From assembly GCA_049294015.1 (NCBI GenBank), contig JBAQCH010000345.1, positions 4,279-68,278 of the forward strand: a stretch of 64,000 nucleotides of DNA, read 5' to 3'. Each line of letters starts with the position of its first letter. Positions within the stretch are counted from its first letter, which is position 1. Shown here one piece after another: positions 3,801-29,461 of the stretch. The position numbers and the translations under genes are program-made. A model generated the notes under the pieces. The model ran no database searches, was not told the origin of the DNA, and saw nothing but the letters and a program-made list of their open reading frames with translations. The DNA comes from Anaerolineae bacterium. Its GTDB lineage: Bacteria > Chloroflexota > Anaerolineae > JAAEKA01.

Positions 3801-3899
3801 ACCCCTGATCACTGTTGGGCCGCGGTGACGGATGCCTCGCCGGTGTATGTGGAGAAGTATCCTCCAACGTTGGGCAGAGGCAATAACTGGTTCGAGTAA
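870..3899 (+). CDS. Secreted lipoprotein: TIM-barrel glycoside-hydrolase-like N-terminal domain (GH42/GH5-like W..LEP..G.YDW..LD motif), Pro/Thr-rich linkers and a C-terminal lamin-tail domain (LTD)
   Basis: Lipoprotein signal MRPCFIRALAAAALALLALAAC. WYLLEPTRGTYDWTELDEYV resembles GH TIM-barrel N-termini. PT linkers occur twice (TPAAPTATPTATATPAPAATP). The C-terminal LVINEV…VELFNSSSEPLDLSLYRL matches the LTD signature. Confidence 0.6.
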   Translation: MRPCFIRALAAAALALLALAACVLRPEQPDTFPVRAVITPGAPATPYAGAQLDYGGLYQFFDVAGSAPSPYQDGSHQVIPWYLLEPTRGTYDWTELDEYVADRAGYGLHIGLGFNTVDYSPYHCASVGGSQCWAGDDREDRIWLPADMLRPQDQNVTYVVCPLDSTYPRHRLPKYWSSQYLSAYEDFVYALAAHIDSTPALANNIDWIELPIGVYGELNPGAGQDRACLQELGLTQDLWEATVEQMIDIWVDAFAGTGIDLSFQGTNFYLDKGNRQRMNDYAAGQGLGLQHAKWHPDWEDMAVACASCWSQGKGMVDAPLRWENQTMFAIEYPDPPLWGEGSRTTLNHAEEDYWNMAAFLDLKGDVYKARLYPRGTLARLTTENPYVQGMMQTLRDLAGKDEQSAPYAITWMRETEWDWWPKCNNFDFYLYASTAQEPRVGSSCPGLSALTTDGQAVAVYNLDATYAPGLCPNDRVYSATCDPRYRYARQTAAGQPYIYLDVDPRYRYGTGVNATVSIDYLDVGTDEIRFQWHNGSAVQTESRAKTNTRQWRTWTLVLANMDLTDRFVSGASAWDFRLWDGGDGVETIHSVKFQPANGGTPAAPTATPTATATPAPAATPWRVRVDPASHTWEDALIWLTRPDTIYASLPTYSLRANSDQAYPVPVYNTTVASLLVEVPFSLPPNTTLNRATLYLTPTGGYLPDAMTLVLRPVVAEWALPSWRYRINPDPGVGGAAVPWATPGAYGVDDVGASFGSVRITADDIAASLPIELDVGGAVQAGGGLALKIEPWCTPSPSTGRCEGFAYFAGSANQNLGIRPYLELDVISNTPPTATPTATRTPTPVSVPPGTATPTATPGGPTRTPTPYPPSLRQGLVINEVCSNPVTTDNVPDGEISGDSAVELFNSSSEPLDLSLYRLCVNTTCLWLEGTTQPLGYKVWYQQWDGLGFIEGGANTVRLYRAGESPLVLVDTLAIQSQTPDHCWAAVTDASPVYVEKYPPTLGRGNNWFE

Positions 3900-4480: not shown

Positions 4481-8113
<3,633 letters not shown>

Positions 8114-8171: not shown

Positions 8172-8813
8172 ATGTCCATTATCTGCAAACTGAGAGGACA
8201 CGACCTTGGCGACTGGCAATATCAGTCCGGGTCTGAGCGCTGTAACGCCAGCAGGTCCTGTCGCCGTTGCGACTTTGTCGAGCGAACCACTCCCCAGCAT
8301 GTCTGGAGTGAGTGGAGTCACACTGAGAGTGATCGATGCAAGCAAAGCAGAACGTGCGAAAAGTGTGCAAATCAGGAAGAACGCACGGTACACGTTTGGG
8401 GTCCACCTGAGTATGTAGAGGAGCGTGCTTGCACGCAGCAACGAGCGTGCCTTTCCTGCTCAGCAACAGAGCGCATGGGAGAACAACACGATTGGGGAGA
8501 GTGGACCTACCAACCCGGAGAGCCTTGTAAGGCAAGCCGAATATGTAGCCGATGTGAGTCGGCAGACGTCACAGAAACCCACTCTTTCAAGTTCCAATAC
8601 GCGTTTAGAGGTGTTGATCCGAGCACTCACCGATTAGCTCACCAGCTATTCTACGTGTGCTCACGGTGCAACGCAAAGAAAACGAACTGGGAGCCGCATG
8701 ACTGGGAGGTGAAAGAGGTGAAAAGAAGAGCCGATGGTAGTGTAATTGACGAGCGTGTTTACTGTGCGGTATGCGGCGCATGGGACTGGGGAAAAGAAGT
8801 GGCTGGGAGCTGA
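8172..8813 (+). CDS. Novel Cys/Trp-rich tandem-repeat zinc-ribbon protein, ~7 copies of a C-x4-C-x2-C…H-x-W-x-E-W module. Function unknown.
   Basis: An AAGGAG RBS lies 9 nt upstream of ATG 8172. Repeats include CNASRSCRRCDFVERTTPQHVWSEWSH, CKQSRTCEKCANQEERTVHVWGPPEY, CTQQRACLSCSATERMGEQHDWGEWTY and CKASRICSRCESADVTETH. G+C is lower than in the flanking genes. Confidence 0.55.
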   Translation: MSIICKLRGHDLGDWQYQSGSERCNASRSCRRCDFVERTTPQHVWSEWSHTESDRCKQSRTCEKCANQEERTVHVWGPPEYVEERACTQQRACLSCSATERMGEQHDWGEWTYQPGEPCKASRICSRCESADVTETHSFKFQYAFRGVDPSTHRLAHQLFYVCSRCNAKKTNWEPHDWEVKEVKRRADGSVIDERVYCAVCGAWDWGKEVAGS

Positions 8814-8908: not shown

Positions 8909-11695
<2,787 letters not shown>

Positions 11696-11737: not shown

Positions 11738-14700
11738 ATGGGTGAAGTCGACCTGGCAATAGAAAGTGCCAAAAACCTGCGTCACAGCATAGAGGTCCAT
11801 GGGGGATCGGTCATGCTGGCAGAAGACCGGATGACGTTTTTCGATGACTACGACGCCCTGCGGAACATGCGCCACTACGCTCCTGACGACTACTGGAATC
11901 TGATCAGTCAAAAACCAGGTTTCGAGCGCGAACTCATCGAAGCTCGCAACCTGTTGGCAGCAGCGCAGAGCGATCTACGCAAGACCTTGGATTTCTTGCG
12001 CAAGCAGACTGATCTCTTACCACAACAGGTCAACGACATCGCCCATCTATTGGATGACTATGACCATTCGGGCGCTCAATTCAGGGCACGGGTGGAGGAA
12101 GCTGCTGCTCGTCGGGCTATGGAGGCATCGATCGCAGCAGCACGCGCCAATTGGCAGCGCACGCGCAGTTCGGCGGCGCGCGTGCAGTTGATTGCAGTGC
12201 TGACCCAGTACCAGAGGTGGAACGATCTGCTGCCCCTGGCGTTGGAGGATGTCCAGAACGCGCCCAATGATCGCCGGGCCAGGCAGTTGCTTGCCTCGGT
12301 GTATGAACATCTGGGAAAGCGCGACGATCTTCTGGCATTGCTCAAGCAGGACCTGGCCAGCGCGCCGGGGGACGCCGCGCTCCGGCGCAGGATAGCCGAG
12401 CTCTTGGTGCAGATGGGGCGTTACGATGAGGCAATTGGCCAGTTGCAGCAGGACATGGCTGCGCCCAGACCGGAGCCATGGGCGGCTGACTTGATGCTTC
12501 AAGCGCTGGAACGCGCTAAGAAGACCGATGCCCTGATCCTGTTTCTGCAAGGCCAGATGCAGGCTAATCCTTCGGATCCTCGCCGGCGACAGAAGCTGGA
12601 GACCGTGCTCGAGCAAGAGGCGCGATGGGGCGACTTGATTCCTCTCCTGGAACAAGACCTGCAAACAAGTCCGGGCAATAGCGCGCTGCGCGAGCGGTTG
12701 GCTGTCAGCTATCGCAAGAGTGGGAGGCTCGACGATCTGCTGAACCATCATCTGTTGCCTGCCGCCAAGCAAGCTCCCGCTGAGTTCCCACCCAAACAGG
12801 CCGTGGTAGAGGCGCTTCTGGATGGACAGCGCGATACCGATGTGCTCGGTTACATCAAGCAAGAGCTGGCTGCTTCTCAGACAGGCGCAGGGTTTCTGTC
12901 CAGGTTCGTCGCCGTTCTGGCGAAGCGGAAAAGGTCCGATCTGGTCGAGCCATTGGCGATGTCTTGTCTGCCGTCGAGCCTTGGACGGATGGACGCCTAC
13001 ATGGAGATTGCACGCGGCTATCGTCAGAACGACGAGGTAAAGGCAGCGCTGGCCTTCCTGGACGCCATGGGCCAACGCTTCCCTGACGACAAAACTGTCG
13101 GGGATCTTCCCGCCGCGTTTCTGGTCGAATCGTTGGAGACAGCATCCTCAACGACGCGCTCGTTCGTGTTGAAACAGCTTTACGCTCGACCCGACAAGAC
13201 TCGCGCAGTCGTTGCGCTTAACGAGTTGTTCGCAAAGACGAACGACGTGAACGTGCAGCTTGACGTGTTGGCTGCACTGGTGGAAATCCAGAAGGCTCAG
13301 GCGCTGCCCTTCCTCAAAGCTTCACTTAGCCATAGCTCCAAGGAGGTGCGTCGCGAGGCCGCCAAGGCTCTTGGCCAGCTCGGCGACAAGCGCGCCAAGC
13401 GACCGTTGCGGCGGCAGCTCAAGGTCGAGCAGGATGCCTCGGTCAAGGTTGCACTCAAGGATGCTTTGCATCAGATCGATCCGAAGGCCAAGGAACATCC
13501 ACCGCTGACGGCTAGCTCGGTCGTCAAAGCCATGATTGGAGGGGGCTTGCTGGGAGCTATATGGGGATGGGTGCAGACATTCTTCTGGATCAGTCCGGGA
13601 CTATCGGATGGTTCGATCACCTTGATCTTGGGCGCTATTTCTGGGGCAGTCATCTTTGGCTTTCCGATTAGTGTCGTGCGGCCAAGCAAGAGCCAGGACG
13701 ATGGATGCTTGACTCTTTTCGGTGGCGGAGCTGTGACCGGTGGCGTTGTTGGAATCGCAATGATCTTGCTCATGCCAATTCTGATTGGATCCTCCATGCT
13801 CTCGTTCGGCTATATTAACGATAATGTCACGATCATCATGAGCGCAGCGATGGCCGCAGTGCTTTCAGTGCTTGGCGTCATCGTCTTCAAAACCAAGCGC
13901 TTTTGGATCTTGCCGGTGACTGGTCTGCTTCTGGTGGCAGTGGTCATTCTCCCGGTCATTCTCCCGGTGGCCGGTTGGACCAGCCGCATGGCCGACGTAA
14001 TCGCTCAGGGAAGAGCAGGTCTAGCTGCCATGTTCGATAAGACGTCGAACAGTTCGCAAAACGAGGAGATGGTAGTAGCTACGAACACAGCCACTCCTAT
14101 GGTGGAAGCTACGCGTTCGGACTCACCAACGCCACAGCCAACGCTAACCGTACCCGCTGGCGTCCCGGCGACTGCCCAGAGCGCCAAAGTGATGAGCGTC
14201 ACTGACGGTCGCGCAATCCGGGTGGAGCTTGTCGATGGCACGGCCACCGTTCGCTATGCTGGCCTGCTCATTCCGACAGGTGACACCCCGGGCGCCGCTG
14301 CCGCCGCGCAGGCAAACCGCGATCTCCTTCACAACCAGTCGGTTTGGCTCGAAACGACAAATCCCGTCCCAGCAGGCGCAGACGTCGAAGCCCAAATCTG
14401 GCTGGCCGCTGGAACGTTGGCCAATCTGCAGCTTGTCGAAATGGGCTACGCGCTACCTGATCCTACGCTGGAAGATGAAAGCGCTGCATCGCGACTACAG
14501 CAGGCGGCCCGTGAGGCATGGGAGGCGCAAGCGGGTTTCTGGGCCGGCGGCACGGATGTCGCGCCCTGGGCAGCGGTGGTGGTTGACACCGCTAACATCC
14601 GCCAGGGACCAGGTACTGATCGTCCGGTGGCTGGAAAGGCTACCCGCAGCGACATCTTCGTGATCAATGGGCGCAACGCCAACGGCGATTGGATCCTGGT

Positions 14701-14791
14701 CCAAACCTCTGCGGAGACAACAGCCTGGCTTTTTGCGGAGCTTGTGCAAACAACAGTGCCGGTAGCGACCATTCCGGTCGTCACGAACTAG
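11738..14791 (+). CDS. Multidomain membrane protein: N-terminal TPR-like ~40-aa repeats plus HEAT (PBS-lyase-type) repeats, a central block of ~5 transmembrane helices, then a C-terminal SNase (thermonuclease)-like domain followed by a bacterial SH3 (SH3b) domain
   Basis: Repeats DLLALLKQDLASAPGDAALRRRIAELLVQMGRYDEA and DLIPLLEQDLQTSPGNSALRERLAVSYRKSGRLDDL. HEAT segment EVRREAAKALGQLGDKRAKRPL. Hydrophobic helices span aa ~600-740. VTDGRAIRVELVDGTATVRYAGLLIPTGDTPGAAAAAQANRDLL…QLVEMGYA follows the SNase pattern V.DGDT…VRLIGID.PE, but Gly sits where the catalytic Glu is expected. ANIRQGPGTDRPVAGKA…GDWILV matches SH3b. Confidence 0.55.
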   Translation: MGEVDLAIESAKNLRHSIEVHGGSVMLAEDRMTFFDDYDALRNMRHYAPDDYWNLISQKPGFERELIEARNLLAAAQSDLRKTLDFLRKQTDLLPQQVNDIAHLLDDYDHSGAQFRARVEEAAARRAMEASIAAARANWQRTRSSAARVQLIAVLTQYQRWNDLLPLALEDVQNAPNDRRARQLLASVYEHLGKRDDLLALLKQDLASAPGDAALRRRIAELLVQMGRYDEAIGQLQQDMAAPRPEPWAADLMLQALERAKKTDALILFLQGQMQANPSDPRRRQKLETVLEQEARWGDLIPLLEQDLQTSPGNSALRERLAVSYRKSGRLDDLLNHHLLPAAKQAPAEFPPKQAVVEALLDGQRDTDVLGYIKQELAASQTGAGFLSRFVAVLAKRKRSDLVEPLAMSCLPSSLGRMDAYMEIARGYRQNDEVKAALAFLDAMGQRFPDDKTVGDLPAAFLVESLETASSTTRSFVLKQLYARPDKTRAVVALNELFAKTNDVNVQLDVLAALVEIQKAQALPFLKASLSHSSKEVRREAAKALGQLGDKRAKRPLRRQLKVEQDASVKVALKDALHQIDPKAKEHPPLTASSVVKAMIGGGLLGAIWGWVQTFFWISPGLSDGSITLILGAISGAVIFGFPISVVRPSKSQDDGCLTLFGGGAVTGGVVGIAMILLMPILIGSSMLSFGYINDNVTIIMSAAMAAVLSVLGVIVFKTKRFWILPVTGLLLVAVVILPVILPVAGWTSRMADVIAQGRAGLAAMFDKTSNSSQNEEMVVATNTATPMVEATRSDSPTPQPTLTVPAGVPATAQSAKVMSVTDGRAIRVELVDGTATVRYAGLLIPTGDTPGAAAAAQANRDLLHNQSVWLETTNPVPAGADVEAQIWLAAGTLANLQLVEMGYALPDPTLEDESAASRLQQAAREAWEAQAGFWAGGTDVAPWAAVVVDTANIRQGPGTDRPVAGKATRSDIFVINGRNANGDWILVQTSAETTAWLFAELVQTTVPVATIPVVTN

Positions 14792-14811
14792 ACGCATGAC
14801 GAGAGATCACC

Positions 14812-15852
14812 ATGGCACATCAGTCAACGAGCAAGGAGGAATGGGCAACAGCAGCAGCCGAGAATGCTGCTACCTTGAGACACGAGATCAACCGTCTGAA
14901 GTCGGATTACGGTCCATCCTTGATGTCTGGACGCGATTATGCTGGTTTCTTTGCTCATGCCAAGCAAATCTCTGAGTTGTTCAAGGCGCTTAAGCCTTTG
15001 AAGTGGGAAGTAAGGGAAGAGCTATGGTCAGATTTCAATCAAACCTGCGATGAAGTACGCCGAGCCAGCGATAGTGAGCAGGAGAATCGTCGTTACAGGT
15101 CTGCGGAGGTCAAAGAGGTGGCGCTTCGTCTTATAAGGGTCGCCACTACATCGGCGGAAGTAGCTGCTGATCGTGACGATGTTCAGAGAGCGAGAGATGC
15201 CTTCAACGAGGCTCACGATTGGCTCCGTGAGCACGCGGGCGAGTTGTTGAGAAACGACGCGAAATTGTGCTGGGATCAGTTTCACGACGGAAAACGCACG
15301 CTTGGCTTTCGAATCGAGCAGCTTCAGGACTGGGCCTATAAAGAGGCGCGTCAAGCGATCCAAGAAGCACGCCGTGCTCTGGGTCGTGACGACCCATTCG
15401 CAGCCCTCAAGGAGATCAAAGCTGCGCAACACAGTTGTAAGGGCCTTTATTTGCGCAAGGATCAAAGCGAAGAGATACGCAGCGAATTCACCGAAATCTG
15501 GGAACAAGCTCAAGAGAACATTGATGAGTATCGTCGTGAGCAGGCCAGAAGACATGAAGAGTATCTCGAACGTCAAGCTGAGAGAGAGAGAAAGCATCAG
15601 GAATGGGTCAGGCGGCAACAGGAGCATATTGAACGATGGTCAAGCAAGGTTGATCGGCTCGAGCAAGTTATCCGAAGCCTGGAGGACCAAATCAGCGATT
15701 TGGAGTATAAGCGTTCCACAGCTCGGAACCGCGACTTTGCTGAGAACTGCGCAGATTGGATCCGCGAAAAACATGCGAAGATCGCTGATATCGAGGAGAC
15801 AATTCGCGACTTAAACAATCGCATCCGAGATGTTCAGCATCAAATCCACTAG
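14812..15852 (+). CDS. Coiled-coil protein of unknown function, Glu/Arg/Gln-rich, probably co-transcribed with 11738..14791
   Basis: It starts 21 nt after the preceding stop. Long heptad-like charged segments appear (EYRREQARRHEEYLERQAERERKHQEWVRRQQEHIERW). Confidence 0.5.
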   Translation: MAHQSTSKEEWATAAAENAATLRHEINRLKSDYGPSLMSGRDYAGFFAHAKQISELFKALKPLKWEVREELWSDFNQTCDEVRRASDSEQENRRYRSAEVKEVALRLIRVATTSAEVAADRDDVQRARDAFNEAHDWLREHAGELLRNDAKLCWDQFHDGKRTLGFRIEQLQDWAYKEARQAIQEARRALGRDDPFAALKEIKAAQHSCKGLYLRKDQSEEIRSEFTEIWEQAQENIDEYRREQARRHEEYLERQAERERKHQEWVRRQQEHIERWSSKVDRLEQVIRSLEDQISDLEYKRSTARNRDFAENCADWIREKHAKIADIEETIRDLNNRIRDVQHQIH

Positions 15853-16013
15853 CGGACAGGAGGTAGATATGACATATTGATTCTAAGCATTGAGTTTTCC
15901 GGCTCGTCGACATGTGGATGCCCCACATCATGGTTGACGCAGGAGATAAGGTGCGCTACAAGCGCAGCCGTCCAGTCGCCAACTAACCCATCAGCAAACA
16001 GGAGAGTTGAACC

Positions 16014-17525
16014 GTGAAGATCAAGCTCATTTCCATCGTGCTCGTGTCAGCCTTTCTGGCAGCGCTAGCAGGCTGCGTTGCCCCGCCCGCGTCAGCTCCC
16101 CCTTCTCCACAAGGGGAGACCACAGAATCTGCAGCTGTCGTTTCTACTGAGAGCGCCACGGGCCAGGAACCAGTGAGAATCACTTTTTGGGAGTGGTTTG
16201 GCGGCGCGTGGGGCGATTTCTTTGAGGAGGAAGCCCAGAGATTTCACGCCGCACATCCAGATGTTGTCGTAGAAGTGTCCCATTTTCCTGACCAAAGCGC
16301 CTATCGTGAAGTGCTCGCGCTCGCTTTCGAGTCAGGTAGCGCGCCGGACACATTCCTAAGGCGCCACACATTCAGCCAGGTTTTCGAGAACGGGTGGGCT
16401 CAGTCAATCGATCCTTGGTTAACGCCAGAGTGGCTGGCGAAGTTTCCTGAGGCTTCGTTTGTTGAGACCAAGAACGTCTGGGATGGAAGAACCTACGCGT
16501 TTCCCGTAACGGCGCTCAAGTTAGATCGAGTAATCTACGTGAACGAGGACATGTTCCGGGCCGCTGGCCTGACTGATGCAGAGGGCAACATCACGGTACC
16601 TGAGACCTGGGATGATCTGAGGTCAATGGCAAAGAAGATCACTGAAACGGGCAACGGAGCCTACTATGGCATCGGAATCGGCATCAAAGATCCTCGCCAG
16701 ATGAGTTGGTGGTTCGATCTGGCGGACCTTGCGGGAGCTTCAGGTACTTACGAATTTGACTATCGAACTGGTGCCTACAATTTTGGCACCGACCCTGCTT
16801 TTTCCCGCGTAATCGAGCTCCTGCTTGGCATGAAGGCTGACGGAAGTGTCTATCCCTATGAAAGCACACTGGATGACAGTAATTTATACACTGGGTTTGG
16901 TCAAGGTCAGTACGCGATGTTTTTGAGTGGTTCTTGGACAGCGAGTAATCTGGAACGGGACTTTCCCGAGCTGAAAAACTACCGCATTATTCCGCTTCCG
17001 ATTCCAGACGAAGGACGCCAAGGGGGGTTACCGTACACACCGGGCAGTGGGCAGTACTACATGTCGGCAACGACCCAGTATCCTGATGAAGCCTGGCTGT
17101 GGCTGGATTGGATATCTTCACGTGGATTTCATGAGCGCATGGTCTCCAAGGCATTGGATTACTCTGTATACCCCGACCTAAACACTGCCGACCTAATGAC
17201 TGATCCAATCCAGCGCCAAGCCTACGATGCCTTGTTCCAGTACCTTGTTTCGTTACCATCACCTACAGTTCGCAATCCTGAGACGACCGCAGTGATACCG
17301 GGTCCTGTGATTCCGGATACCGGCGATGTCTTGGTGGGGATTTATACCGGGCAGATCAAGGACTGGGAAAATGCGTTACTAGACCTCGATGCGAGGAAGC
17401 AAGCCGCTTTTGATGCAGCCATCGAGAAAGCTCAAAGCGAAGGCGCTGATGTCAGCATTGAGGACTTCGTCTTTCCGGATTGGAACCCCATGGAAAACTA
17501 CATAACGGTGCCAGAAGGTCCATGA
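16014..17525 (+). CDS. ABC transporter extracellular solute-binding lipoprotein (family-1 sugar SBP)
   Basis: GTG start with an AGGAG RBS. Lipobox LAALAGC. Typical SBP composition. Two permease genes lie downstream. Confidence 0.8.
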   Translation: MKIKLISIVLVSAFLAALAGCVAPPASAPPSPQGETTESAAVVSTESATGQEPVRITFWEWFGGAWGDFFEEEAQRFHAAHPDVVVEVSHFPDQSAYREVLALAFESGSAPDTFLRRHTFSQVFENGWAQSIDPWLTPEWLAKFPEASFVETKNVWDGRTYAFPVTALKLDRVIYVNEDMFRAAGLTDAEGNITVPETWDDLRSMAKKITETGNGAYYGIGIGIKDPRQMSWWFDLADLAGASGTYEFDYRTGAYNFGTDPAFSRVIELLLGMKADGSVYPYESTLDDSNLYTGFGQGQYAMFLSGSWTASNLERDFPELKNYRIIPLPIPDEGRQGGLPYTPGSGQYYMSATTQYPDEAWLWLDWISSRGFHERMVSKALDYSVYPDLNTADLMTDPIQRQAYDALFQYLVSLPSPTVRNPETTAVIPGPVIPDTGDVLVGIYTGQIKDWENALLDLDARKQAAFDAAIEKAQSEGADVSIEDFVFPDWNPMENYITVPEGP

Positions 17526-17670
17526 GGAGACTTCACCCACCGTGCAGGGCCGGAACATCGGCGTGATGATGAAGCCAGATCCTAACTAGACCTGGATCGT
17601 CGAGAGAGTATGGAAAGTGACTAGGCGGCTGGAATGCTTCTGCCGCCTGGTCACTTCCAGTGGAGTCACA

Positions 17671-18582
17671 ATGATATCTGCTGCCACAGCGAGAATCCGA
17701 CGGAATCTCTGGGTGTATGTGTTTATTGCGCCGATGTTGTTGCTCTTTGTTTTGTTTACATTGTATCCGGTCTTTGGATCCTTTCGCTACACGCTGTACG
17801 ACTGGAATGGCATCGGTGAACCAAGGCGTTACGTCGGCATCACCAACTTCTTTGATACATTCAGGGATCCCTGGTTTTGGAATGCATTCAAGAACACTCT
17901 GATCTATACGTTGGTGCTCGTTCCCATTCAACTTGCGATCGCTTTAGTGATGGCCGTTATCCTTGACCGACCTTGGCTCCGAGCCAGATACGTGTACCGT
18001 GCAGCCTTCATTGCTCCCATAGTCACTTCATCAGCAATAGTAGGCATCATCATCACTCTCCTGGTAACGACAGCCAATCGGGGCGTCAACCAGCTCGTAC
18101 TCAATTTCGGTCTCTTGACGAGGCCATTTGATTGGCTGGGTGATGCGAGAACCGCCATGCCTATCCTCATTGGTACAGGGATATGGATCGGACTGGGATA
18201 CCCGATCATCTACTTCCTGGCCGCCCTACAGTCGATTGATAAACAGTTATATGATGCGGCGAAAGTTGATGGTGCAGGCATTTGGGCCAGCTTCCGCCAC
18301 GTCACTGTTCCTCAAATCCTGCCTGTTGGCGTTGTGGTTGCGTTGCTGGTCGCGCTAAGTAGTCTGAGGGTCTTCGACATTGTGCAAGTGATGACCAAAG
18401 GTGGCCCGTATTTTGCCACGGATGTAGTCAGCACATATGTGTATCGATACACTTTTGCAACGGACTTGGCTGATCCAAACGTCGGACGGGCATCAGCAGC
18501 GGCCTTCCTGGTGAGTCTGTTGATTGGTGCAGTGACCGTGCTTGAAGTAGGAATGATCCGCAGAATCCGTGCGCAGAAATGA
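17671..18582 (+). CDS. ABC sugar transporter permease (MalF/UgpA-like)
   Basis: ATG at 17671 with a GGAG RBS. Six or more transmembrane helices. ABC-permease EAA-like loop AAKVDGAGIWASFRHVTVP. The longer ORF start at 17617 is unlikely. Confidence 0.75.
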   Translation: MISAATARIRRNLWVYVFIAPMLLLFVLFTLYPVFGSFRYTLYDWNGIGEPRRYVGITNFFDTFRDPWFWNAFKNTLIYTLVLVPIQLAIALVMAVILDRPWLRARYVYRAAFIAPIVTSSAIVGIIITLLVTTANRGVNQLVLNFGLLTRPFDWLGDARTAMPILIGTGIWIGLGYPIIYFLAALQSIDKQLYDAAKVDGAGIWASFRHVTVPQILPVGVVVALLVALSSLRVFDIVQVMTKGGPYFATDVVSTYVYRYTFATDLADPNVGRASAAAFLVSLLIGAVTVLEVGMIRRIRAQK

Positions 18583-18600
18583 GTGAAGGAGCGTGCTTCA

Positions 18601-19443
18601 ATGCTTCCGTATTCAAAACCAGTCAGGATTTCGAGGTTTGTTCTCTATGCCGTACTATCTATTGTGGCCTTCCTTTACACCTATCCGTTTCTCTGGATGG
18701 TATCCGGATCCTTCAAAAAGCCTGGTGAATTCTACGAGCAAGGCCTTCGGCTAGTCGTCGACAACCCGAACTGGCAGAACTTCCTAAGCGTGTGGAACAC
18801 TGTCGGCTTCGATATCTACTTCCGCAACACCGTAGTTGTTGCCGTTGTGACCACTCTGCTAGTCCTGCTCTTTACGTCCATGGCTGGCTATGTTATTGCT
18901 CGTCACGAGTTTCCTGGTCGCAGACTCGTTGTAGGTTGCCTCCTGGTGACGATCTTCCTTCCCAGGGGATACACAATCGTACCTATTTTTGAACTGATCA
19001 AAGACTTAGGGCTCTTGAATACACTTTGGGCGGTAATCTTGGTCAGCACTGGAACCAGCATGGTTTTCAATACCTTTCTTTTTGCAGGCTACTTCTTGAC
19101 CTTACCCAAGGAACTGGAAGAGGCTGCTCTTCTTGACGGCGCAAACCTTCCACAGATCTATGGGAGAGTCGCCATACCTTTTGCTCGGCCAATGATCGCA
19201 ACTGTCGCTCTATTCGAGTTCATCGAGCACTGGAATAGCTTCTTCATTCCCTTGGTTTTCACCCTTGGCCGGCCAGATCTGCGAACGTTAGCAGTTGGTA
19301 TGTATGCCTTTGTCGGGCAGCACCACACTCAATGGACGCTTATTTGTGCAGCTGCTACTATCTCACTTCTACCTATCGCCATACTGTTTATGATATTGCA
19401 GCGTCAGATCATTGACGGCATTGCGGGTGCAATTCATGGGTGA
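18601..19443 (+). CDS. ABC sugar transporter permease (MalG/UgpE-like)
   Basis: ATG at 18601 with a GAAGGAG RBS 9 nt upstream. EAA motif EEAALLDGANLPQIYGRVAIP. Confidence 0.75.
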   Translation: MLPYSKPVRISRFVLYAVLSIVAFLYTYPFLWMVSGSFKKPGEFYEQGLRLVVDNPNWQNFLSVWNTVGFDIYFRNTVVVAVVTTLLVLLFTSMAGYVIARHEFPGRRLVVGCLLVTIFLPRGYTIVPIFELIKDLGLLNTLWAVILVSTGTSMVFNTFLFAGYFLTLPKELEEAALLDGANLPQIYGRVAIPFARPMIATVALFEFIEHWNSFFIPLVFTLGRPDLRTLAVGMYAFVGQHHTQWTLICAAATISLLPIAILFMILQRQIIDGIAGAIHG

Positions 19444-19503
19444 TCCTACGCAGACTGGAATTCAGTCATTCTCTGACCATAGCCTGATGAATCGGAGTAA
19501 TCA

Positions 19504-22500
19504 ATGGCGCTAACCAATCGTGACCGCGTCGGCAAGGCGCTTGAGCTACTGCAGCAGGGTCTTCGCCCCTACGTCCAGCGCGAGATGGAGGCGGAGTATC
19601 GTTCAGCCTGGCTGAAGCAGGCCGCTTACAGCCTGCACAAGGACGAGGGCTGGGCCGACAGCGACCCGTTTCTGGACGCCCAGGCGCTGCTAGTCATCAT
19701 GTGGGACCAGTGGAATAGCGTCTTCAAGGAGACCTTAGGCTTCGCCGAGCGCGCCATCGTCAGTGAACTACGCGAGGCGCGCAACACTTGGGCGCATCAG
19801 GCTCCGTTCACCACCGACGACGCCTACCGCGCCCTGGACAGCATCGCCCGCCTTTTGACCGCGATCTCAGCGCCCGAAGCCCAAGAGGTCGAGCGCCAAA
19901 AGCAGGAGCTGCTGCGCCTCAAATTCGAGGAGCAGGCCCGCCACGAGCGCCGCAAAGCTGCCATCGCGCCCACCGAGGGCCGGCCCAGCGGCAGCCTCCT
20001 CCCCTGGCGCGAGGTGGTGACGCCCCATCCCGACGTGGCCTCGGGCCGCTACCTGCAGGCCGAGTTTGCGGCCGACCTGTGGCAGGTCTACATGGGCGAA
20101 GGCGCCGGCGAGTACCGCGACCCGCTCCAGTTCTTCGAGCGCACTTTCATCACCGATGGCCTGCGCCGGCTGCTGGTCAACGCGCTGCGCCGCCTGGACG
20201 GCCAGAACGCCGACCCCGTGATCGAGCTACAGACCAACTTCGGCGGCGGCAAGACCCACTCCATGCTGGCCCTGTTCCACCTGTTTTCTGGCGCTCCCGT
20301 AGGCCGTCTCGCCGGCGTCGAGCCGCTGGTGCGCGAGGCCGGCGCCGCGCCGCCGCCGACCGTTCACCGGGCCGTGCTGGTGGGCAACAAGATTTCGCCC
20401 GGCCAGCCCAGCCGCAAGCCGGACGGCACGGTGGTCCACACGCTGTGGGGCGAACTGGCCTGGCAGTTGGGCGGGGCCGAGGCCTATGCCCTGCTGGCCG
20501 ACGACGACCGCAACGCCACCAACCCTGGCGACCCACTGCGTCTGCTGTTCAACCGCTACGCCCCTTGCCTCCTCCTGGTCGACGAGTGGGTGGCCTACGC
20601 CCGCCAGTTGCACGACCGGGCCGATCTGCCGGGCGGCTGCTTCGACACCCACTTCACCTTTGCCCAGACCCTGACCGAGGCCGCCAAAGCTGCCGATCGC
20701 TGCCTGTTGGTGGTCTCCATGCCCGCCAGCGAGATCGAGATGGGCGGCGAGCGCGGCAAGGTCGCGCTGGACCGGCTCAAGAACGCTATCGGCCGGCTGG
20801 AGTCGCCCTGGCGGCCGGCCAGCGCTGAAGAGGGCTTCGAGATCGTGCGCCGCCGCCTGTTCCAGCCGCTGACCGACACCAGCAAGTTCGCCGCGCGCGA
20901 CCTGGTGGTGGGCAGCTTTGCCCGCATGTACCGCGAACAGCCGCAGGACTTCCCGGCCGAGACGCGCGAGGGCGCGTACGAGCGGAGGATGCAGGCGGCC
21001 TATCCCATCCACCCGGAGTTGTTCGACCGGCTGTATAGCGAGTGGTCCAGCCTGGAGAAGTTTCAGCGCACGAGAGGCGTACTGCGCCTGATGGCCGCGG
21101 TGATCCACGCCCTGTGGGAGCGCGGCGACAGCAATCTGCTGATCCTGCCGGCCACCGTGCCCATCGACGACGCCAACGTCCAAGCCGAACTGACCCGCTA
21201 CCTGGACGACAACTGGGTACCCGTGATCGAGCGGGACGTGGACGGCCCGGCCAGCCTGCCCCTCAAGCTGGATCGCGACAACCCGACCCTGGGTCGCTTC
21301 TCGGCCAGCCGCCGCGTGGCGCGCACCATCTACCTGGGATCGGCCCCCACTGCCAAGGCCAGCAACCCCGGCATCGACGACCGGAGCATTCGCCTGGGCT
21401 GTGCGCAGCCGGGCGAGAACGTGGCCGCCTTCGGCGATGCGCTGCGCCGCCTGACCGACAACGCCACCCACCTCTACGTGGATCGCAGCCGCTACTGGTA
21501 CAACACCCAGCCCAGCGTCGGTCGCCTGGCCCAGGACCGCGCCGCGCAGATGGATCGCGAAGATCACATCTGGCCGGAACTCAAGCGTCGGCTGCGCGCA
21601 GACCGCCAGCGTGGAGAGTTCAGCGCCGTCCATGCCGCGCCTGACTCCAGCGGCGACGTCCCTGACGAGATGACGACGCGTCTGGTGATCTTGGGACCGG
21701 GCTACCCGCACACACGGCGCGATCCCGCCAGCAAAGCACTGTCCGAAGCTAGGAGCATCCTGGCCTGGCGCGGCAGTGCGCCGCGGCTGTATCAGAACAT
21801 GGTGGTCTTCTTGGCCCCGGACAGTAACCGGCTGCCGGAGCTAGAAGACGCCATCCGCCATTACCTGGCGTGGAAGTCCATCGACGACGAGAAGGACACC
21901 CTGAACCTGGATACCTTCCAGCGCAACCAGGCCAAGACCAAGCACGAGCAGGCCGACCAGACGGTCAACGCTCGCATCAAGGAGGCCTACGTCTGGTTGC
22001 TCTCGCCGCACCAAGAGGATCCCCAAGACCCGCAAACGCTCAACATCGACGAGGCCAAGCTGGCGGGGCAGGACAGCCTGGCGGTGCAGGCCAGCCGCAA
22101 GCTCAAGAACGAGGACTGGCTGAGCACCGAGTTCGGCGGCGTGCCGCTGCGCATGGCGATGGATCGCTACAACCTGTGGCAGGGCGCCGAGCGCGTCCTC
22201 CTGCGCCAATTGTGGGAGTACTTTGCCCGCTACCCCTACCTGCCCCGCCTGTGCGCCCAAGACGTGCTGCTGGGAGCGGTGCAGAACGGCGTCGGTCAGA
22301 TTACCTGGCACGAGAACTTCGCTTACGCGGCCGGCTGGGACGACAGCCGCCAACGCTACCTGGGGCTGCGGGCGGGAGAGAACACCAGCGTGCTGCTGGA
22401 CGGCCAGAGCCTGCTGGTCAAACCGGCGGCCGCCCAGCGCCAGATCGACGCCGACCGTCAGGAGCAGGAGAAACGCACGCCACCGCCGGGAGGTGAGGGC

Positions 22501-22812
22501 ACAGGTACGACCGTGAGGACGCCGCCGCCTGGTGGAGAAACACCACCGCCGCCCGATCCTCAGCCACCTGTCGTTAGGCATCGCCGTTTCCACGGTTCGG
22601 TCAAGCTGGACACATTACGACTGTCATCCCAGGCCGGCGCTGTCCACGAGGCCGTCGTCCAGCATCTGCAAAGCCTGGTGGGAGCGGAGGTGCAGGTCAC
22701 GCTGGAAATCCAGGCCTACCTGCCTGATGGCGCGCCGGAGAATGTGGTGCGGACGGTGACTGAGAATGCGCGGACGCTGAGGTTCGAGGGCTTTGGGTTT
22801 GAGGACACGTAA
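19504..22812 (+). CDS. DUF499-family protein: N-terminal Swt1-like HEPN domain plus P-loop ATPase, the ATPase component of the helicase-methylase-ATPase defence triad
   Basis: HEPN Rx4H motif REARNTWAHQ. Walker A TNFGGGKTHS. The overall ~1100-aa architecture is typical of DUF499. GGAG RBS before ATG 19504. Confidence 0.8.
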   Translation: MALTNRDRVGKALELLQQGLRPYVQREMEAEYRSAWLKQAAYSLHKDEGWADSDPFLDAQALLVIMWDQWNSVFKETLGFAERAIVSELREARNTWAHQAPFTTDDAYRALDSIARLLTAISAPEAQEVERQKQELLRLKFEEQARHERRKAAIAPTEGRPSGSLLPWREVVTPHPDVASGRYLQAEFAADLWQVYMGEGAGEYRDPLQFFERTFITDGLRRLLVNALRRLDGQNADPVIELQTNFGGGKTHSMLALFHLFSGAPVGRLAGVEPLVREAGAAPPPTVHRAVLVGNKISPGQPSRKPDGTVVHTLWGELAWQLGGAEAYALLADDDRNATNPGDPLRLLFNRYAPCLLLVDEWVAYARQLHDRADLPGGCFDTHFTFAQTLTEAAKAADRCLLVVSMPASEIEMGGERGKVALDRLKNAIGRLESPWRPASAEEGFEIVRRRLFQPLTDTSKFAARDLVVGSFARMYREQPQDFPAETREGAYERRMQAAYPIHPELFDRLYSEWSSLEKFQRTRGVLRLMAAVIHALWERGDSNLLILPATVPIDDANVQAELTRYLDDNWVPVIERDVDGPASLPLKLDRDNPTLGRFSASRRVARTIYLGSAPTAKASNPGIDDRSIRLGCAQPGENVAAFGDALRRLTDNATHLYVDRSRYWYNTQPSVGRLAQDRAAQMDREDHIWPELKRRLRADRQRGEFSAVHAAPDSSGDVPDEMTTRLVILGPGYPHTRRDPASKALSEARSILAWRGSAPRLYQNMVVFLAPDSNRLPELEDAIRHYLAWKSIDDEKDTLNLDTFQRNQAKTKHEQADQTVNARIKEAYVWLLSPHQEDPQDPQTLNIDEAKLAGQDSLAVQASRKLKNEDWLSTEFGGVPLRMAMDRYNLWQGAERVLLRQLWEYFARYPYLPRLCAQDVLLGAVQNGVGQITWHENFAYAAGWDDSRQRYLGLRAGENTSVLLDGQSLLVKPAAAQRQIDADRQEQEKRTPPPGGEGTGTTVRTPPPGGETPPPPDPQPPVVRHRRFHGSVKLDTLRLSSQAGAVHEAVVQHLQSLVGAEVQVTLEIQAYLPDGAPENVVRTVTENARTLRFEGFGFEDT

Positions 22813-23020: not shown

Positions 23021-23602
23021 ATGAACGATTTTCGCTCATTGCATTTGGATGAAATAAGAAGGGACCTTTTTTTGAGAGGGTATAGTGGCACAGAAGTGAA
23101 CGAACTGTTGGATTTCCCGATTCTGCTAATTCCTGGTCCCGTTACGCCTCTCGATCTGGATGAACCCATCCAACAACTGACAAACCACATTGCCTTCCTC
23201 TCGAAGGATTTGTCAAGTGAGGGAGTCACAAACGTGGTAGCTGTTCGAAGAGATGTCCCCAAGCATTATGTCGAAGAGCGTCACGCTCATGTTGACTTGG
23301 GAACAATTGTGGTTAGTCTCATAAGCTTGCAGCAATTAGATGGCTTTGCAAATATCGCTCAGATTCTCGACTTTTTTCTTAACCTGATGAAGCTGAGGTT
23401 CAGTGAAGGACGAACAACAGACCTCACTCCGAGTGTTACGTTTGACCTGCAAGTTCATAACGGGGATAAGGTAGTCAGCTGGCATGTTGAAGGTCCTGCC
23501 AATGACCTAATCAAAATGACCACCCCCGCGCGTATTGCTGCCATAACCGCCGGCCTGAAGGAAACCTCCAAAGATGACTATACTCGATGCTCAGATACTT
23601 GA
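23021..23602 (+). CDS. Hypothetical protein, first gene of an AT-richer cassette
   Basis: Protein-like composition and no recognisable motifs. The region is visibly lower in G+C than its flanks. Confidence 0.45.
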   Translation: MNDFRSLHLDEIRRDLFLRGYSGTEVNELLDFPILLIPGPVTPLDLDEPIQQLTNHIAFLSKDLSSEGVTNVVAVRRDVPKHYVEERHAHVDLGTIVVSLISLQQLDGFANIAQILDFFLNLMKLRFSEGRTTDLTPSVTFDLQVHNGDKVVSWHVEGPANDLIKMTTPARIAAITAGLKETSKDDYTRCSDT

Positions 23603-29440: not shown

Positions 29441-29461
29441 GGGTGGTCTCCTGTGCGGCTT

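What the first reader, a model, noticed from the sequence alone, without database searches (positions are those of the whole stretch)
11738..15852. Giant HEAT/TPR, transmembrane, SNase-like, SH3b protein plus coiled-coil partner, carried as cargo inside the defence locus
The architecture is unusual. Cytoplasmic TPR-like and PBS-lyase HEAT repeats come first, then a cluster of ~5 transmembrane helices, then an extracytoplasmic staphylococcal-nuclease-fold domain. That domain appears to have lost the catalytic Glu of the (I/L)D.PE motif (IPTGDTPG), so it may be a binding module rather than a nuclease. A C-terminal SH3b domain follows. A 346-aa coiled-coil protein comes 21 nt later. This could be a membrane-spanning sensor/scaffold, and I cannot place it in a known system.
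Basis: partly seen in the sequence, partly recalled or inferred. Interest (0 to 1): 0.55.

Follow-up and report, generated by a model that had tools for sequence, protein, structure and literature searches.

The report
Membrane dead-nuclease protein orphaned inside Hma
A rare, intact membrane protein with a cytoplasmic repeat scaffold and a catalytically dead nuclease plus wall-binding domain outside the cell sits inside a phage-defence operon. Its conserved neighbour in relatives, an NLR-like NACHT ATPase, has been swapped here for an unrelated helical protein and sugar-transporter genes.

Summary
Both ORFs exist exactly as reported: 11738-14791 (1017 aa) and 14812-15852 (346 aa).

**Architecture.** It is confirmed:
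- a TPR/HEAT solenoid (confident AF2 model for aa 1-520)
- five TM helices, N-in/C-out
- an S/T/P-rich linker
- an SNase-fold domain (AF2 pLDDT 94; TM-score 0.76-0.79 to S. aureus nuclease) that lacks D21, D40 and R87
- an SH3b domain

**Context.** The gene lies between hmaB and hmaC of an intact Hma (Type-1 BREX-related) system in an Anaerolineae MAG. Its composition is foreign (GC3 0.66 versus about 0.85 for host-like genes).

**Partner.** The "coiled-coil partner" reading fails. Only four other lineages carry the big protein. In all of them it follows an hmaB 3' end or remnant and precedes a ~1620-aa glycine-zipper/NACHT/HEAT STAND NTPase, never the 346-aa protein. In this window, homology stops 3 nt after the stop codon and resumes ~15 nt before hmaC. 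The NACHT block has therefore been replaced by the 346-aa gene plus three sugar ABC-transporter genes (GC3 ~0.55).

**Reading.** It is most likely an envelope-anchored binding or sensor scaffold, once paired with a NACHT protein and now orphaned. The function remains inferred. It is a new variant of known parts, of moderate interest.

The parts
11738..14791 (+). 1017-aa polytopic membrane protein (the 'giant'): TPR/HEAT solenoid, 5 TM helices, dead SNase domain, SH3b
   Evidence: ORF. Pfam hits. Only 3 other full-length homologue clusters among 5.8e9. dN/dS is 0.24-0.38 against orthologues. GC3 is 0.66 against about 0.85 for host-like genes.
11738..12127 (+). aa 1-130: N-terminal long-helix region, present as two divergent allelic types among lineages
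   Evidence: AF2 helices H3-42, H59-88 and H112-142 at pLDDT about 85-90. dN is 0.5-0.7 between window/L004 and L001/L002, but 0.06 within L001/L002.
12128..13177 (+). aa 131-480: TPR-like alpha-solenoid (cytoplasmic)
   Evidence: TPR_7 37.2 bits and TPR_14 26.2 bits. AF2 pLDDT 80-92 with paired helices. Foldseek matches to OGT, Naa15 and consensus TPR superhelices at E about 1e-7.
13178..13507 (+). aa 481-590: HEAT / PBS-lyase HEAT-like repeats (cytoplasmic)
   Evidence: HEAT_2 E=8.3e-11 (42.5 bits) and HEAT_PBS 23.1 bits, above GA 20.9. Lowest dN/dS of the protein, 0.12-0.22.
13508..13987 (+). aa 591-750: block of five glycine-rich transmembrane helices
   Evidence: Hydropathy segments and loop charges, with K/R in the loops before TM1, between TM2 and TM3, and between TM4 and TM5. 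AF2 helices 592-616, 625-640, 658-684, 691-717 and 724-741. This block is found only in the family in a search of 1.84e9 representatives.
13988..14167 (+). aa 751-810: amphipathic helix followed by an S/T/P-rich extracytoplasmic linker
   Evidence: Sequence. Poorly conserved among the homologues.
14168..14557 (+). aa 811-940: staphylococcal-nuclease-fold domain with a degenerate active site (pseudo-nuclease)
   Evidence: AF2 pLDDT 94. Foldseek to S. aureus nuclease: TM-score 0.76-0.79, rmsd 3.0-3.3 A. Profile against PDB sequences E=2.3e-16. D21, D40 and R87 are replaced in all four family members.
14558..14788 (+). aa 941-1017: bacterial SH3 (SH3b) domain
   Evidence: SH3_3 E=1.2e-5, 25.8 bits against GA 27. 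Aligned relatives score up to E=5e-13 for the equivalent single domain. All-beta in the confident AF2 model.
14812..15852 (+). 346-aa helical protein. It is not a conserved partner. Its C-terminal ~80 aa are homologous to the tail of a DUF349-repeat protein.
   Evidence: Only 3 other homologues, each in an unrelated context. hhalign probability 96%, E=4.2e-9, to the C-terminus of a Streptococcus salivarius DUF349 protein. GC3 0.54.
14795..19488 (+). Segment unique to this lineage (346-aa gene plus ABC importer genes). It occupies the place of the Zn-ribbon / NACHT / Cys-repeat genes of relatives.
   Evidence: blastn and alignment breakpoints. No NACHT remnant in the window. GC3 0.54-0.57. No flanking repeats.
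16014..19443 (+). Sugar-type ABC importer genes: lipoprotein solute-binding protein (16014-17525) and two permeases (17617-18582, 18583-19443). No ATPase gene.
   Evidence: SBP_bac_1 E=3e-32 and BPD_transp_1 twice.
4481..8113 (+). HmaA: Swi2/Snf2 helicase with a C-terminal NOV_C/REase domain
   Evidence: PADLOC HmaA E=0, 1620 bits. Pfam SNF2-rel_dom, Helicase_C and NOV_C.
8172..8813 (+). Cys-rich repeat (zinc-ribbon-like) protein lodged between hmaA and hmaB. The likely true start is the Met at 8172.
   Evidence: Translation shows repeated C..R.C.RC...H.WG.W units. Paralogues follow the NACHT gene in L001, L002 and L012. GC3 0.565.
8909..11695 (+). HmaB: DUF1156 N6-adenine DNA methyltransferase. 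Its 3' end travels with the giant gene in every relative.
   Evidence: PADLOC HmaB E=0. DUF1156 E=2e-32. HmaB 3' remnants of 85-149 aa lie directly upstream of the giant in L001-L005, L012 and L013.
19504..22812 (+). HmaC: HEPN(Swt1)-DUF499 ATPase
   Evidence: PADLOC HmaC E=0. HEPN_Swt1 E=2e-37 and DUF499 E=4e-24.

Best explanation
**What is shown.**
- The 1017-aa ORF is a real, intact gene under purifying selection. It encodes a polytopic membrane protein found only in a few Anaerolineae lineages.
- About 590 residues of TPR/HEAT alpha-solenoid face the cytoplasm.
- Five glycine-rich helices cross the membrane.
- An S/T/P-rich linker carries an SNase-fold domain that has lost its Ca2+ ligands and a catalytic arginine, followed by an SH3b domain. 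Both lie outside the cell.
- This ectodomain derives from a widespread module of secreted or membrane-anchored thermonuclease-SH3b proteins.
- The gene belongs to a block of foreign composition lodged between hmaB and hmaC of an otherwise intact Hma (Type-1 BREX-related) restriction-modification-like defence system.
- In the relatives the block is: giant, 61-aa zinc ribbon, ~1620-aa glycine-zipper/NACHT/HEAT STAND NTPase, Cys-repeat protein.
- In this window everything after the giant's stop codon has been replaced cleanly by an unrelated 346-aa helical protein and a sugar ABC importer. The giant here is an orphan.

**What is inferred.**
- The dead-nuclease plus SH3b ectodomain acts as a binding module for cell wall and/or nucleic acid, tethered at the outer face of the membrane.
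- The cytoplasmic solenoid acts as a docking platform. Its original client was probably the neighbouring NACHT NTPase, whose N-terminal glycine-zipper segment is itself membrane-seeking. The pair would have coupled an envelope event to an NLR-like switch.
- Without the NACHT gene, the protein in this genome either works alone as an envelope scaffold or is a still-intact relic.
- The 346-aa protein is a separately acquired neighbour, not its partner.
For: **Gene reality and constraint.**
- ORF.
- dN/dS is 0.24-0.38 overall and 0.12-0.22 in the HEAT segment.

**Architecture.**

**Origin and location of the ectodomain.**
- More than 180 hits at E<1e-10 to SNase+SH3b(+LTD) proteins.
- 13 of 16 such relatives have an N-terminal signal, lipoprotein signal or TM anchor.
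- The closest relative, P0012, is a short cytoplasmic tail, one TM helix, a degenerate SNase and an SH3b.
- D21, D40 and R87 are lost in all four family members, while most canonical relatives keep them.

**Hma context.** PADLOC matches. Hma is described as the Type-1 BR system in PMC12839542.

**Conserved NACHT neighbour and hmaB/hmaC flanks in relatives.**
- L001: hmaB end, giant, Zn61, NACHT, Cys-repeat, hmaC start.
- L002/L003/L013, L004/L005 and L012 show the same core.
- The neighbour is a NACHT by Pfam (E=4.7e-9), by Walker A GEPGSGKS and by the DAFDE signature.
- NACHT dN/dS is 0.20-0.29.

**Clean replacement in the window.**
- Breakpoints at 14794 and about 19489.
- No NACHT remnant.
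- GC3 steps from 0.66 to about 0.55 to 0.86.
- The gene order is confirmed by two independent assemblies.
Against: **No functional data exist for any member.**

**The giant-NACHT coupling rests on adjacency in only four lineages of one bacterial class. The pair is broken in three of the five lineages, this window included:**
- This window has the giant without the NACHT gene.
- L004/L005 have an in-frame TAG at codon 283 of the giant next to an open NACHT reading frame, which is cut by the contig end.
- L012 has a giant with a 5' deletion and a 3' frameshift beside an intact NACHT gene.
- So neither gene strictly needs the other.

**The adjacency may be vertical.** One relative (L002) ends in the same dnaB gene that lies downstream in the window. 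The locus may therefore be inherited vertically, and the adjacency could reflect shared history rather than function.

**Binding to DNA or peptidoglycan is assumed from the domain families and was not tested.**

**Selection looks more relaxed in the TM and SNase segments between the closest lineages** (dN/dS 0.5-0.7).

**The search with the NACHT protein returned only itself**, so the breadth of that family is unknown.
Confidence: 0.5

Rival explanations
1. One reading: the giant and the 346-aa protein form a two-gene membrane sensor/scaffold module carried as a unit inside the defence locus.
For: The genes are co-directional and only 20 nt apart. Both have non-host composition. Both are rare families.
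Against: - The 346-aa gene is absent beside the giant in all four other lineages.
- Its homologues follow unrelated genes in a Bacteroidota-like contig and after a DNA methylase.
- Homology with the relatives ends 3 nt after the giant's stop codon.
- GC3 is 0.54 against 0.66, which groups it with the ABC genes and not with the giant.
Confidence: 0.08
2. The giant is a stand-alone envelope protein unrelated to immunity, for example a wall-anchored matrix or eDNA-binding scaffold, or a regulator of wall metabolism. It lies in a variable chromosomal island next to dnaB, and its neighbours are incidental.
For: - It stays intact here without the NACHT gene.
- The NACHT gene stays open beside disrupted giants.
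- Its ectodomain relatives are ordinary secreted proteins.
- In L004 the neighbourhood also holds a PASTA-domain protein and a two-component system.
- L002 shares the downstream dnaB with the window, which suggests vertical inheritance of the locus.
Against: - In every lineage it is flanked by Hma sequence and a NACHT gene, not by wall-synthesis genes.
- Its composition is foreign.
- The family is extremely sparse, which is unusual for a housekeeping envelope function.
Confidence: 0.27
3. In this genome the gene is a functionless relic of a decaying cassette, intact only because too little time has passed.
For: - Two of the four other lineages already carry disrupted copies.
- The presumed partner gene has been lost here.
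- dN/dS is raised to 0.5-0.7 in the TM and SNase segments between close lineages.
Against: - The ORF is a full 1017 aa with a plausible RBS.
- Overall dN/dS is 0.27-0.38.
- The sequence is identical in two independent runs.
Confidence: 0.13
4. It is an active membrane-tethered extracellular nuclease.
For: SNase fold. Arg35 and an acidic residue at the Glu43 position are kept in three of four members.
Against: Asp21, Asp40 and Arg87 are replaced in all members, while most close free-standing relatives keep them. These residues are the Ca2+ ligands and a catalytic arginine of staphylococcal nuclease (established enzymology, from my own knowledge).
Confidence: 0.02

Closest known systems
Secreted or membrane-anchored thermonuclease-SH3b(-LTD) proteins (Pfam SNase PF00565 plus SH3_3 PF08239, often with Lamin Tail Domain PF00932)
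   Same: The C-terminal 230 aa are homologous along the whole tandem (E down to 2.3e-41, 30-41% identity). The domain order is the same and the location is extracytoplasmic. A few relatives (P0012, P0029, P0031) also have degenerate active sites, and P0012 is also N-in membrane-anchored.
   Different: Those proteins are mostly 250-650 aa with a signal peptide or a single anchor, and most keep the DGDT / DTPE / GR catalytic motifs. None has the 5-TM block or the 590-aa TPR/HEAT cytoplasmic domain.
SN-like domains of SND1/Tudor-SN (catalytically inactive SNase folds used as binding scaffolds)
   Same: Same fold; SND1 structures are among the top Foldseek matches. The idea of an SNase fold kept for binding and not for cleavage is shared (my knowledge of SND1).
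   Different: SND1 is a eukaryotic, cytoplasmic or nuclear protein with tandem SN domains and a Tudor domain. There is no membrane anchor, and the similarity is at fold level only (14-18% identity).
Bacterial NACHT (NLR-related, bNACHT) antiphage proteins with repeat sensors
   Same: The neighbour gene in relatives has the tripartite layout described for bacterial NACHT proteins: an N-terminal module, a NACHT domain with the D[GAS]hDE signature, and C-terminal HEAT repeats (Kibby et al., bioRxiv 10.1101/2022.07.19.500537).
   Different: Described bNACHT proteins act as single genes. No membrane-spanning accessory protein with an ectodomain has been described with them in the papers I could read. 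The NACHT gene is absent from this window, and no PADLOC model matches it.
Hma / Type-1 BREX-related (BR) system (helicase-nuclease HmaA, DUF1156 methylase HmaB, HEPN-DUF499 ATPase HmaC)
   Same: The window carries all three core genes in the usual order and orientation. Extra genes inside BR loci have been reported, namely nucleases (PMC12839542).
   Different: Hma is described as a three-gene operon (PMC8565338). Here 7.8 kb and five genes separate hmaB from hmaC, and a sixth gene separates hmaA from hmaB. The inserted genes are not nucleases of the reported superfamilies.
DUF349 (PF03993) repeat proteins (relevant to the 346-aa protein only)
   Same: The C-terminal ~80 residues (ERKHQEW...QISDLEYK...WIxEK) align with the C-terminal tail of a Streptococcus salivarius megaplasmid DUF349 protein (43% identity, hhalign probability 96%).
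   Different: No DUF349 repeat is detected in the 346-aa protein or in its three homologues, even at E<=5. The function of DUF349 proteins is itself unknown.

Membership tests
Staphylococcal nuclease (SNase, PF00565) superfamily | OB-fold barrel plus three helices of S. aureus nuclease | tested here: met
   AF2 pLDDT 94.1. Foldseek TM-score 0.76-0.79 and rmsd 3.0-3.3 A over 132 columns. Family profile against PDB sequences E=2.3e-16.
Staphylococcal nuclease (SNase, PF00565) superfamily | Pfam gathering score for the domain | tested here: not met
   17.9 bits against a cut-off of 21, E=0.0044. Homology is recovered only through intermediates.
Active thermonucleases | Ca2+ ligands Asp21, Asp40 and Thr41, and catalytic Arg35, Glu43 and Arg87 | tested here: not met
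   Family alignment: Asp21 becomes R/H/K/N, Asp40 becomes Pro, Arg87 becomes D/G, and Glu43 becomes Asp (Ser in P0004). Arg35 is kept in 3 of 4 members. Residue roles are from my own knowledge of the enzyme.
Bacterial SH3 (SH3_3, PF08239) | Profile match above gathering score, and a small beta-barrel fold | tested here: inconclusive
   25.8 bits against a cut-off of 27. The source database lists PF08239 for all four members. Aligned relatives score up to E=5e-13 for the equivalent single domain. The AF2 model is all-beta in this segment, but no SH3b structure appeared among the listed Foldseek matches, which were dominated by SNase.
TPR / HEAT repeat proteins | Above-threshold repeat matches and an alpha-solenoid structure | tested here: met
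   TPR_7, TPR_14, HEAT_2 and HEAT_PBS are all above their gathering scores. AF2 pLDDT 80-92 for aa 1-520. TPR superhelix matches.
Hma / Type-1 BR defence system component | Being one of the conserved core proteins (helicase-nuclease, DUF1156 methylase, DUF499 ATPase) or a recurrent accessory | tested here: not met
   The giant matches no Hma model, only a domain-level SNc+LTD model. It lies inside the locus in two lineages with hmaC present or begun (window, L001). It persists in three lineages where Hma is reduced to remnants.
Two-gene module with a NACHT STAND NTPase | Adjacent NACHT gene | tested here: not met
   The NACHT gene is present next to every other family member. It is absent from the whole 64-kb window.
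N-in/C-out polytopic membrane protein | Odd number of TM helices, positive-inside loop charges, ectodomain of secreted type | tested here: met
   Five hydrophobic helices, with K/R confined to alternate loops (AF2 helices). 13 of 16 relatives of the ectodomain have signal peptides or anchors. No dedicated topology predictor or experiment was available.
DUF349 (PF03993), for the 346-aa protein | At least one DUF349 repeat | tested here: not met
   No DUF349 hit in any of the four homologues at E<=5. Only the C-terminal tail is shared.
Coiled-coil protein, for the 346-aa protein | Heptad periodicity scored by a coiled-coil predictor | not tested
   There are only sub-threshold matches to coiled-coil families (DUF1664, TMF, LmuB) over aa 227-341.

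The most novel reading that the evidence does not exclude
The giant and the NACHT-HEAT protein of the relatives form an envelope-coupled NLR-like immune sensor.
- A wall-tethered dead nuclease outside the cell would detect phage DNA or adsorption-linked wall damage.
- It would signal through the five-helix bundle and the cytoplasmic solenoid to a NACHT switch.
- The glycine-zipper N-terminus of that switch would then damage the membrane.
- The whole unit is nested as a second layer inside a BREX-related system.

This window would then show the receptor half surviving alone after a cassette swap.
Probability: 0.12. Interest if true: 0.8.

Novelty: new variant of a known kind. Interest (0 to 1): 0.36.

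Why it matters
Bacterial STAND/NLR-like immune proteins are thought to sense phage components inside the cell as single polypeptides. A transmembrane accessory with a ligand-binding ectodomain would be a way to sense events at the cell surface. This family, together with its NACHT neighbour in relatives, is a concrete candidate to test.

The locus is also a clear example of a BREX-related (Hma) operon used as a landing pad. Different lineages hold different cargo at exactly the same intergenic borders, including a metabolic transporter. That is a caution against assuming that everything inside a defence operon is a defence gene.

On its own, the window's copy is an uncharacterised, lineage-restricted membrane protein built from familiar domains.

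Tried and rejected
1. **Direct search of the C-terminal 218 aa against PDB sequences.** Only noise, E>0.5. It was superseded by the profile search and the AF2/Foldseek result.
2. **Full-length AF2 with a 4-sequence alignment.** Confident only for aa 1-520; the TM and C-terminal parts were below pLDDT 50. The C-terminus was remodelled with a 19-sequence alignment.
3. **Homologue search with the L001 NACHT protein.** It returned only the query, not even its 77%-identical orthologue, so it says nothing about that family's breadth.
4. **Scans of one genome per GTDB species and of JGI metagenome contigs.** Each added a single locus, L012 and L013. The family really is sparse, or the peptide patterns used were too narrow.
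5. **Repeats, promoter/terminator, Rfam and tRNA scans**. No terminal repeats, att-like sites, tRNA or RNA element mark the cassette borders, and promoter and terminator counts were at or below shuffle expectation. The mechanism of the swap is therefore unknown.
6. **Phage and plasmid collections.**
   - No plasmid hit for the giant.
   - No phage hit for the 346-aa protein.
   - The only plasmid hit for the 346-aa protein was the DUF349 tail.
7. **Weak family matches.** The MotA_ExbB match to the TM block (E=0.016) and the MamA and NblB NCBIfam hits lie far below their cut-offs. I treated them as repeat-level or chance matches.
8. **Assembly chimera.** Considered because of the GC drop at 14-20 kb, and rejected because two independent Logan assemblies give the same order.
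9. **Literature searches** for glycine-zipper NACHT proteins and for SNase-SH3-LTD nucleases found nothing relevant.

Full report
**1.

The window carries ORFs at 11738-14791 (+, 1017 aa) and 14812-15852 (+, 346 aa), separated by 20 nt. NCBI names the first one [quoted passage not shown]. Two Logan assemblies from different sequencing runs reproduce the order hmaB end / 1017 aa / 346 aa / solute-binding protein / two permeases / hmaC start. So the GC drop across 14-20 kb is not a mis-assembly.

**2. Anatomy of the 1017-aa protein**

*Pfam hits*

| Family | Bits | Gathering score | Region |
|---|---|---|---|
| TPR_7 | 37.2 | 27.9 | aa 183-213 |
| TPR_14 | 26.2 | 23.5 | aa 419-452 |
| HEAT_2 | 42.5 | 27.7 | aa 498-576 |
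| HEAT_PBS | 23.1 | 20.9 | aa 537-559 |
| SH3_3 | 25.8 | 27 | aa 950-1003 |
| SNase | 17.9 | 21 | aa 855-936 |

*Cytoplasmic solenoid.* An AF2 model built on the four family members is confident for aa 1-520 (pLDDT 80-92). It is an unbroken run of paired helices. Foldseek matches it to TPR superhelices such as OGT, Naa15 and a consensus TPR protein.

*Membrane block.*
- Hydropathy gives five hydrophobic helices between about aa 595 and 746.
- Lys/Arg residues are confined to the segment before helix 1 and to the loops between helices 2-3 and 4-5.
- AF2 draws helices at the same places, at low confidence.
- This pattern fits N-in/C-out.

*Ectodomain.*
- A search of 1.84 billion representative proteins with aa 590-1017 found the TM block only in the family itself.
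- aa 784-1015 hit more than 180 proteins at E<1e-10, the best at 2.3e-41.
- All ten that I checked carry above-threshold Pfam SNase domains. Most also have above-threshold SH3b hits, often followed by a lamin-tail domain.
- 13 of 16 have an N-terminal signal peptide, lipoprotein signal or anchor. The module is therefore normally extracytoplasmic, which agrees with an odd number of TM helices.
- A profile of this module hits S. aureus nuclease structures at E=2.3e-16.
- AF2 on aa 811-1017 with 19 sequences gives pLDDT 94.1 and pTM 0.89.
- That model superposes on staphylococcal nuclease with TM-score 0.76-0.79 and rmsd 3.0-3.3 A. The inactive SN domains of SND1 are also among the top matches.

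*Active site.*
- Most free-standing relatives keep DGDT, R, DTPE and GR.
- All four family members have R/H/K/N at Asp21, Pro at Asp40 and D/G at Arg87.
- The Glu43 position is Asp in three members and Ser in one.
- The closest relative outside the family, P0012, is a 93-aa cytoplasmic tail, one TM helix, a similarly degenerate SNase and an SH3b. Membrane-tethered dead versions of this module are thus not unique to the giant.

**3. The locus**

*Core defence genes.*
- PADLOC models identify HmaA (4481-8113), HmaB (8909-11695) and HmaC (19504-22812), all at E=0.
- Pfam adds SNF2/Helicase_C/NOV_C for HmaA, DUF1156 for HmaB, and HEPN_Swt1 plus DUF499 for HmaC.
- Hma was defined as a three-gene operon (PMC8565338). 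It has been reclassified as the Type-1 BREX-related system, an RM-like module in which extra nucleases sometimes sit within the locus (PMC12839542).
- Here hmaB and hmaC are separated by 7.8 kb holding five co-directional genes: the giant, the 346-aa gene, an SBP_bac_1 lipoprotein and two BPD_transp_1 permeases.

*Composition (GC3).*

| Gene(s) | GC3 |
|---|---|
| hmaA, hmaC, dnaB, recD2 and a GH3 gene | 0.82-0.88 |
| hmaB | 0.76 |
| giant | 0.66 |
| 346-aa gene | 0.54 |
| transporter genes | 0.54-0.57 |

A Cys-repeat gene between hmaA and hmaB (8172-8813) has GC3 0.565.

**4. Relatives**

Only three other full-length clusters exist among 5.8 billion. Scans of GTDB species genomes and JGI metagenomes added one locus each. 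I compared their contexts by gene calls, tblastn and blastn.

- **L001:** hmaB 3' end (88% aa identity), giant, 61-aa zinc ribbon, 1619-aa NACHT/HEAT protein, Cys-repeat protein, hmaC start (95% identity).
- **L002/L003/L013:** HEAT/beta-helix protein, 94-aa glycine-zipper protein, a 107-aa hmaB remnant, giant, Zn ribbon, 1624-aa NACHT protein, Cys-repeat protein. The contig then reaches the 3' end of the same dnaB gene that lies at 26329 in the window.
- **L004/L005:** the same upstream genes as L002, an 85-aa hmaB remnant, a giant interrupted by an in-frame TAG at codon 283 (identical in two samples), then the NACHT gene.
- **L012** (Anaerolineae MAG):
  - a different, complete Hma-like system lies upstream;
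  - then an hmaB remnant fused to giant aa 366-1002, with a frameshift near its 3' end;
  - then the Zn ribbon, an intact 1622-aa NACHT gene and the Cys-repeat gene;
  - then a 106-aa hmaC remnant.

The NACHT protein has a Pfam NACHT domain (E=4.7e-9) and HEAT_2. It has Walker A GEPGSGKS and the NACHT-type DAFDE Walker B. It also has a moderately hydrophobic glycine-zipper N-terminus, which occurs as stand-alone 94/106-aa proteins in L002 and L004. This fits the effector-NACHT-repeat layout described for bacterial NLR-related proteins. No PADLOC model matches it.

**5. What happened in this window**

- DNA homology to all the relatives runs through the giant's stop codon and ends 3 nt later, at 14794.
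- It resumes about 15 nt before the hmaC start, at 19489.
- No trace of the Zn-ribbon or NACHT genes is left anywhere in the 64 kb, and no Cys-repeat gene lies at the corresponding position before hmaC.
- The segment 14795-19488 (346-aa gene plus ABC genes) therefore occupies the place of a 5.9-kb block in L001.
- The borders are clean and intergenic, with no flanking repeats, tRNA or RNA element.

**6. The 346-aa protein is not a partner**

- It has three homologues.
  - One follows a 1091-aa PQQ beta-propeller protein with a T9SS sorting tail, on an AT-rich contig.
  - One starts 3 nt after a DNA methylase fused to an inactive restriction endonuclease domain.
  - The third lies on a contig too short (1.2 kb) to show its neighbours.
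- None lies near a giant homologue.
- Its conserved C-terminal ~80 aa align with the tail of a Streptococcus salivarius megaplasmid DUF349 protein (43% identity, hhalign probability 96%). No DUF349 repeat is detectable in it.
- The coiled-coil character is suggested only by sub-threshold matches over aa 227-341.

**7. Selection**

- Pairwise Nei-Gojobori dN/dS for the giant is 0.24-0.38 overall.
- It is lowest in the HEAT segment (0.12-0.22) and highest in the TM and SNase segments between the closest lineages (0.5-0.7).
- The NACHT gene shows 0.20-0.29.
- The first 130 aa and the SH3b segment are mosaic. L001 groups with L002, and the window groups with L004. This points to recombination among lineages.

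**8. Interpretation**

*Shown:*
- The gene is real and constrained.
- The domain order and probable topology are as described above.
- The ectodomain is a dead SNase derived from secreted nuclease-SH3b proteins.
- The gene lies within an intact Hma locus.
- It has an ancestral neighbourhood with a NACHT STAND NTPase, and a lineage-specific cassette swap left it alone here.

*Inferred:*
- The ectodomain binds wall and/or nucleic acid.
- The solenoid is a docking platform.
- The original client was the NACHT protein.

The inference is weakened because the pair is broken in three of five lineages, in both directions, and because the locus may simply be inherited vertically next to dnaB. The main rival is an envelope scaffold with no role in immunity, and I cannot exclude it.

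**9. Novelty and score**

All the domains and the host system are known, and pipelines already annotate the parts. JGI, for example, names a homologue "TPR repeat protein/endonuclease YncB".

What is new:
- the combination of a solenoid, a 5-TM block and a dead SNase-SH3b ectodomain;
- the association of that protein with a NACHT protein;
- the nesting of both inside a BREX-related operon, with different cargo in different lineages.

I rate it a new variant of a known kind, with interest about 0.36. The more exciting reading, an envelope-coupled NLR-like sensor, has a probability of about 0.12.

Noticed in passing
window 8172-8813 (+); also L001 8945-9470, L002 13704-14270, L012 17227-17856: A Cys-rich protein built of repeated ~35-aa units (C..R.C.RC...H.WG.W, zinc-ribbon-like) with low GC3 (0.565) lies between hmaA and hmaB in the window. 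Paralogues (25-34% identity) lie after the NACHT gene, before hmaC or its remnant, in the relatives. It has no Pfam, NCBIfam or PADLOC match. The listed ORF start at 8070 overlaps hmaA; the Met at 8172 aligns with the relatives' start.
   Followed up: partly
L001 4048-8907; L002 8828-13702; L012 12321-17189; L002 4553-4837; L004 8119-8439: The ~1620-aa NACHT/HEAT protein next to every other family member starts with a glycine-zipper-like hydrophobic segment (GVVIGTAVFGPGGALIGGIAGAAV). Stand-alone 94/106-aa copies of that N-terminal ~95 aa are encoded a few genes upstream in L002 and L004, next to an 830-850-aa HEAT plus beta-helix (NosD-like) protein.
   Followed up: partly
L012 1-9430 and 9719-18270: In one Anaerolineae MAG a complete but distant Hma-like system (HmaB 32% and HmaC 28% identical to the window's) lies immediately upstream of the decayed window-type Hma. 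The decayed copy is an hmaB remnant, a truncated giant, the NACHT gene and a 106-aa hmaC remnant. This looks like tandem defence loci with one copy eroding.
   Followed up: partly
window 16014-19443 (+): A sugar-type ABC importer (lipoprotein SBP plus two permeases, no ATPase gene) lies inside the Hma operon directly upstream of hmaC. This is a metabolic cassette in a defence operon, with foreign GC3 (0.54-0.57).
   Followed up: partly
window 137-856 (+) and 870-3899 (+): Upstream of hmaA there is a 239-aa ORF with a weak CHAT-protease match (E=3e-4, below threshold), followed 14 nt later by a 1009-aa ORF with no Pfam, NCBIfam or PADLOC match. Both have host-like GC3. They may be another conflict-type gene pair.
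   Followed up: no
window 26329-28527 (-): The DnaB-like helicase is 732 aa and shows an extra weak P-loop/AAA match at aa 566-653, after the DnaB_C domain. This is an unusual C-terminal extension. The same gene end is seen at the end of L002, which ties the loci to one chromosomal site.
   Followed up: no
window 23574-24905 (+): A 443-aa ORF just downstream of hmaC has the lowest GC3 in the region (0.50) and no match in Pfam, NCBIfam or PADLOC. It is another foreign gene in the island.
   Followed up: no
L011 2-2646: The most distant homologue of the 346-aa protein (27% identity) starts 3 nt after an N6_N4 DNA methylase fused to a 'NACHT-associated inactive restriction endonuclease' / Mrr-like domain. 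This is the only hint of a link between that family and DNA-modification genes.
   Followed up: partly
window 28970-33198: The listed + strand ORFs (788 and 561 aa) have GC1 above 0.8 with GC3 0.68 and no Pfam match. Long overlapping ORFs lie on the - strand (29462-31177, 31549-33159). The real genes here may be on the other strand.
   Followed up: no
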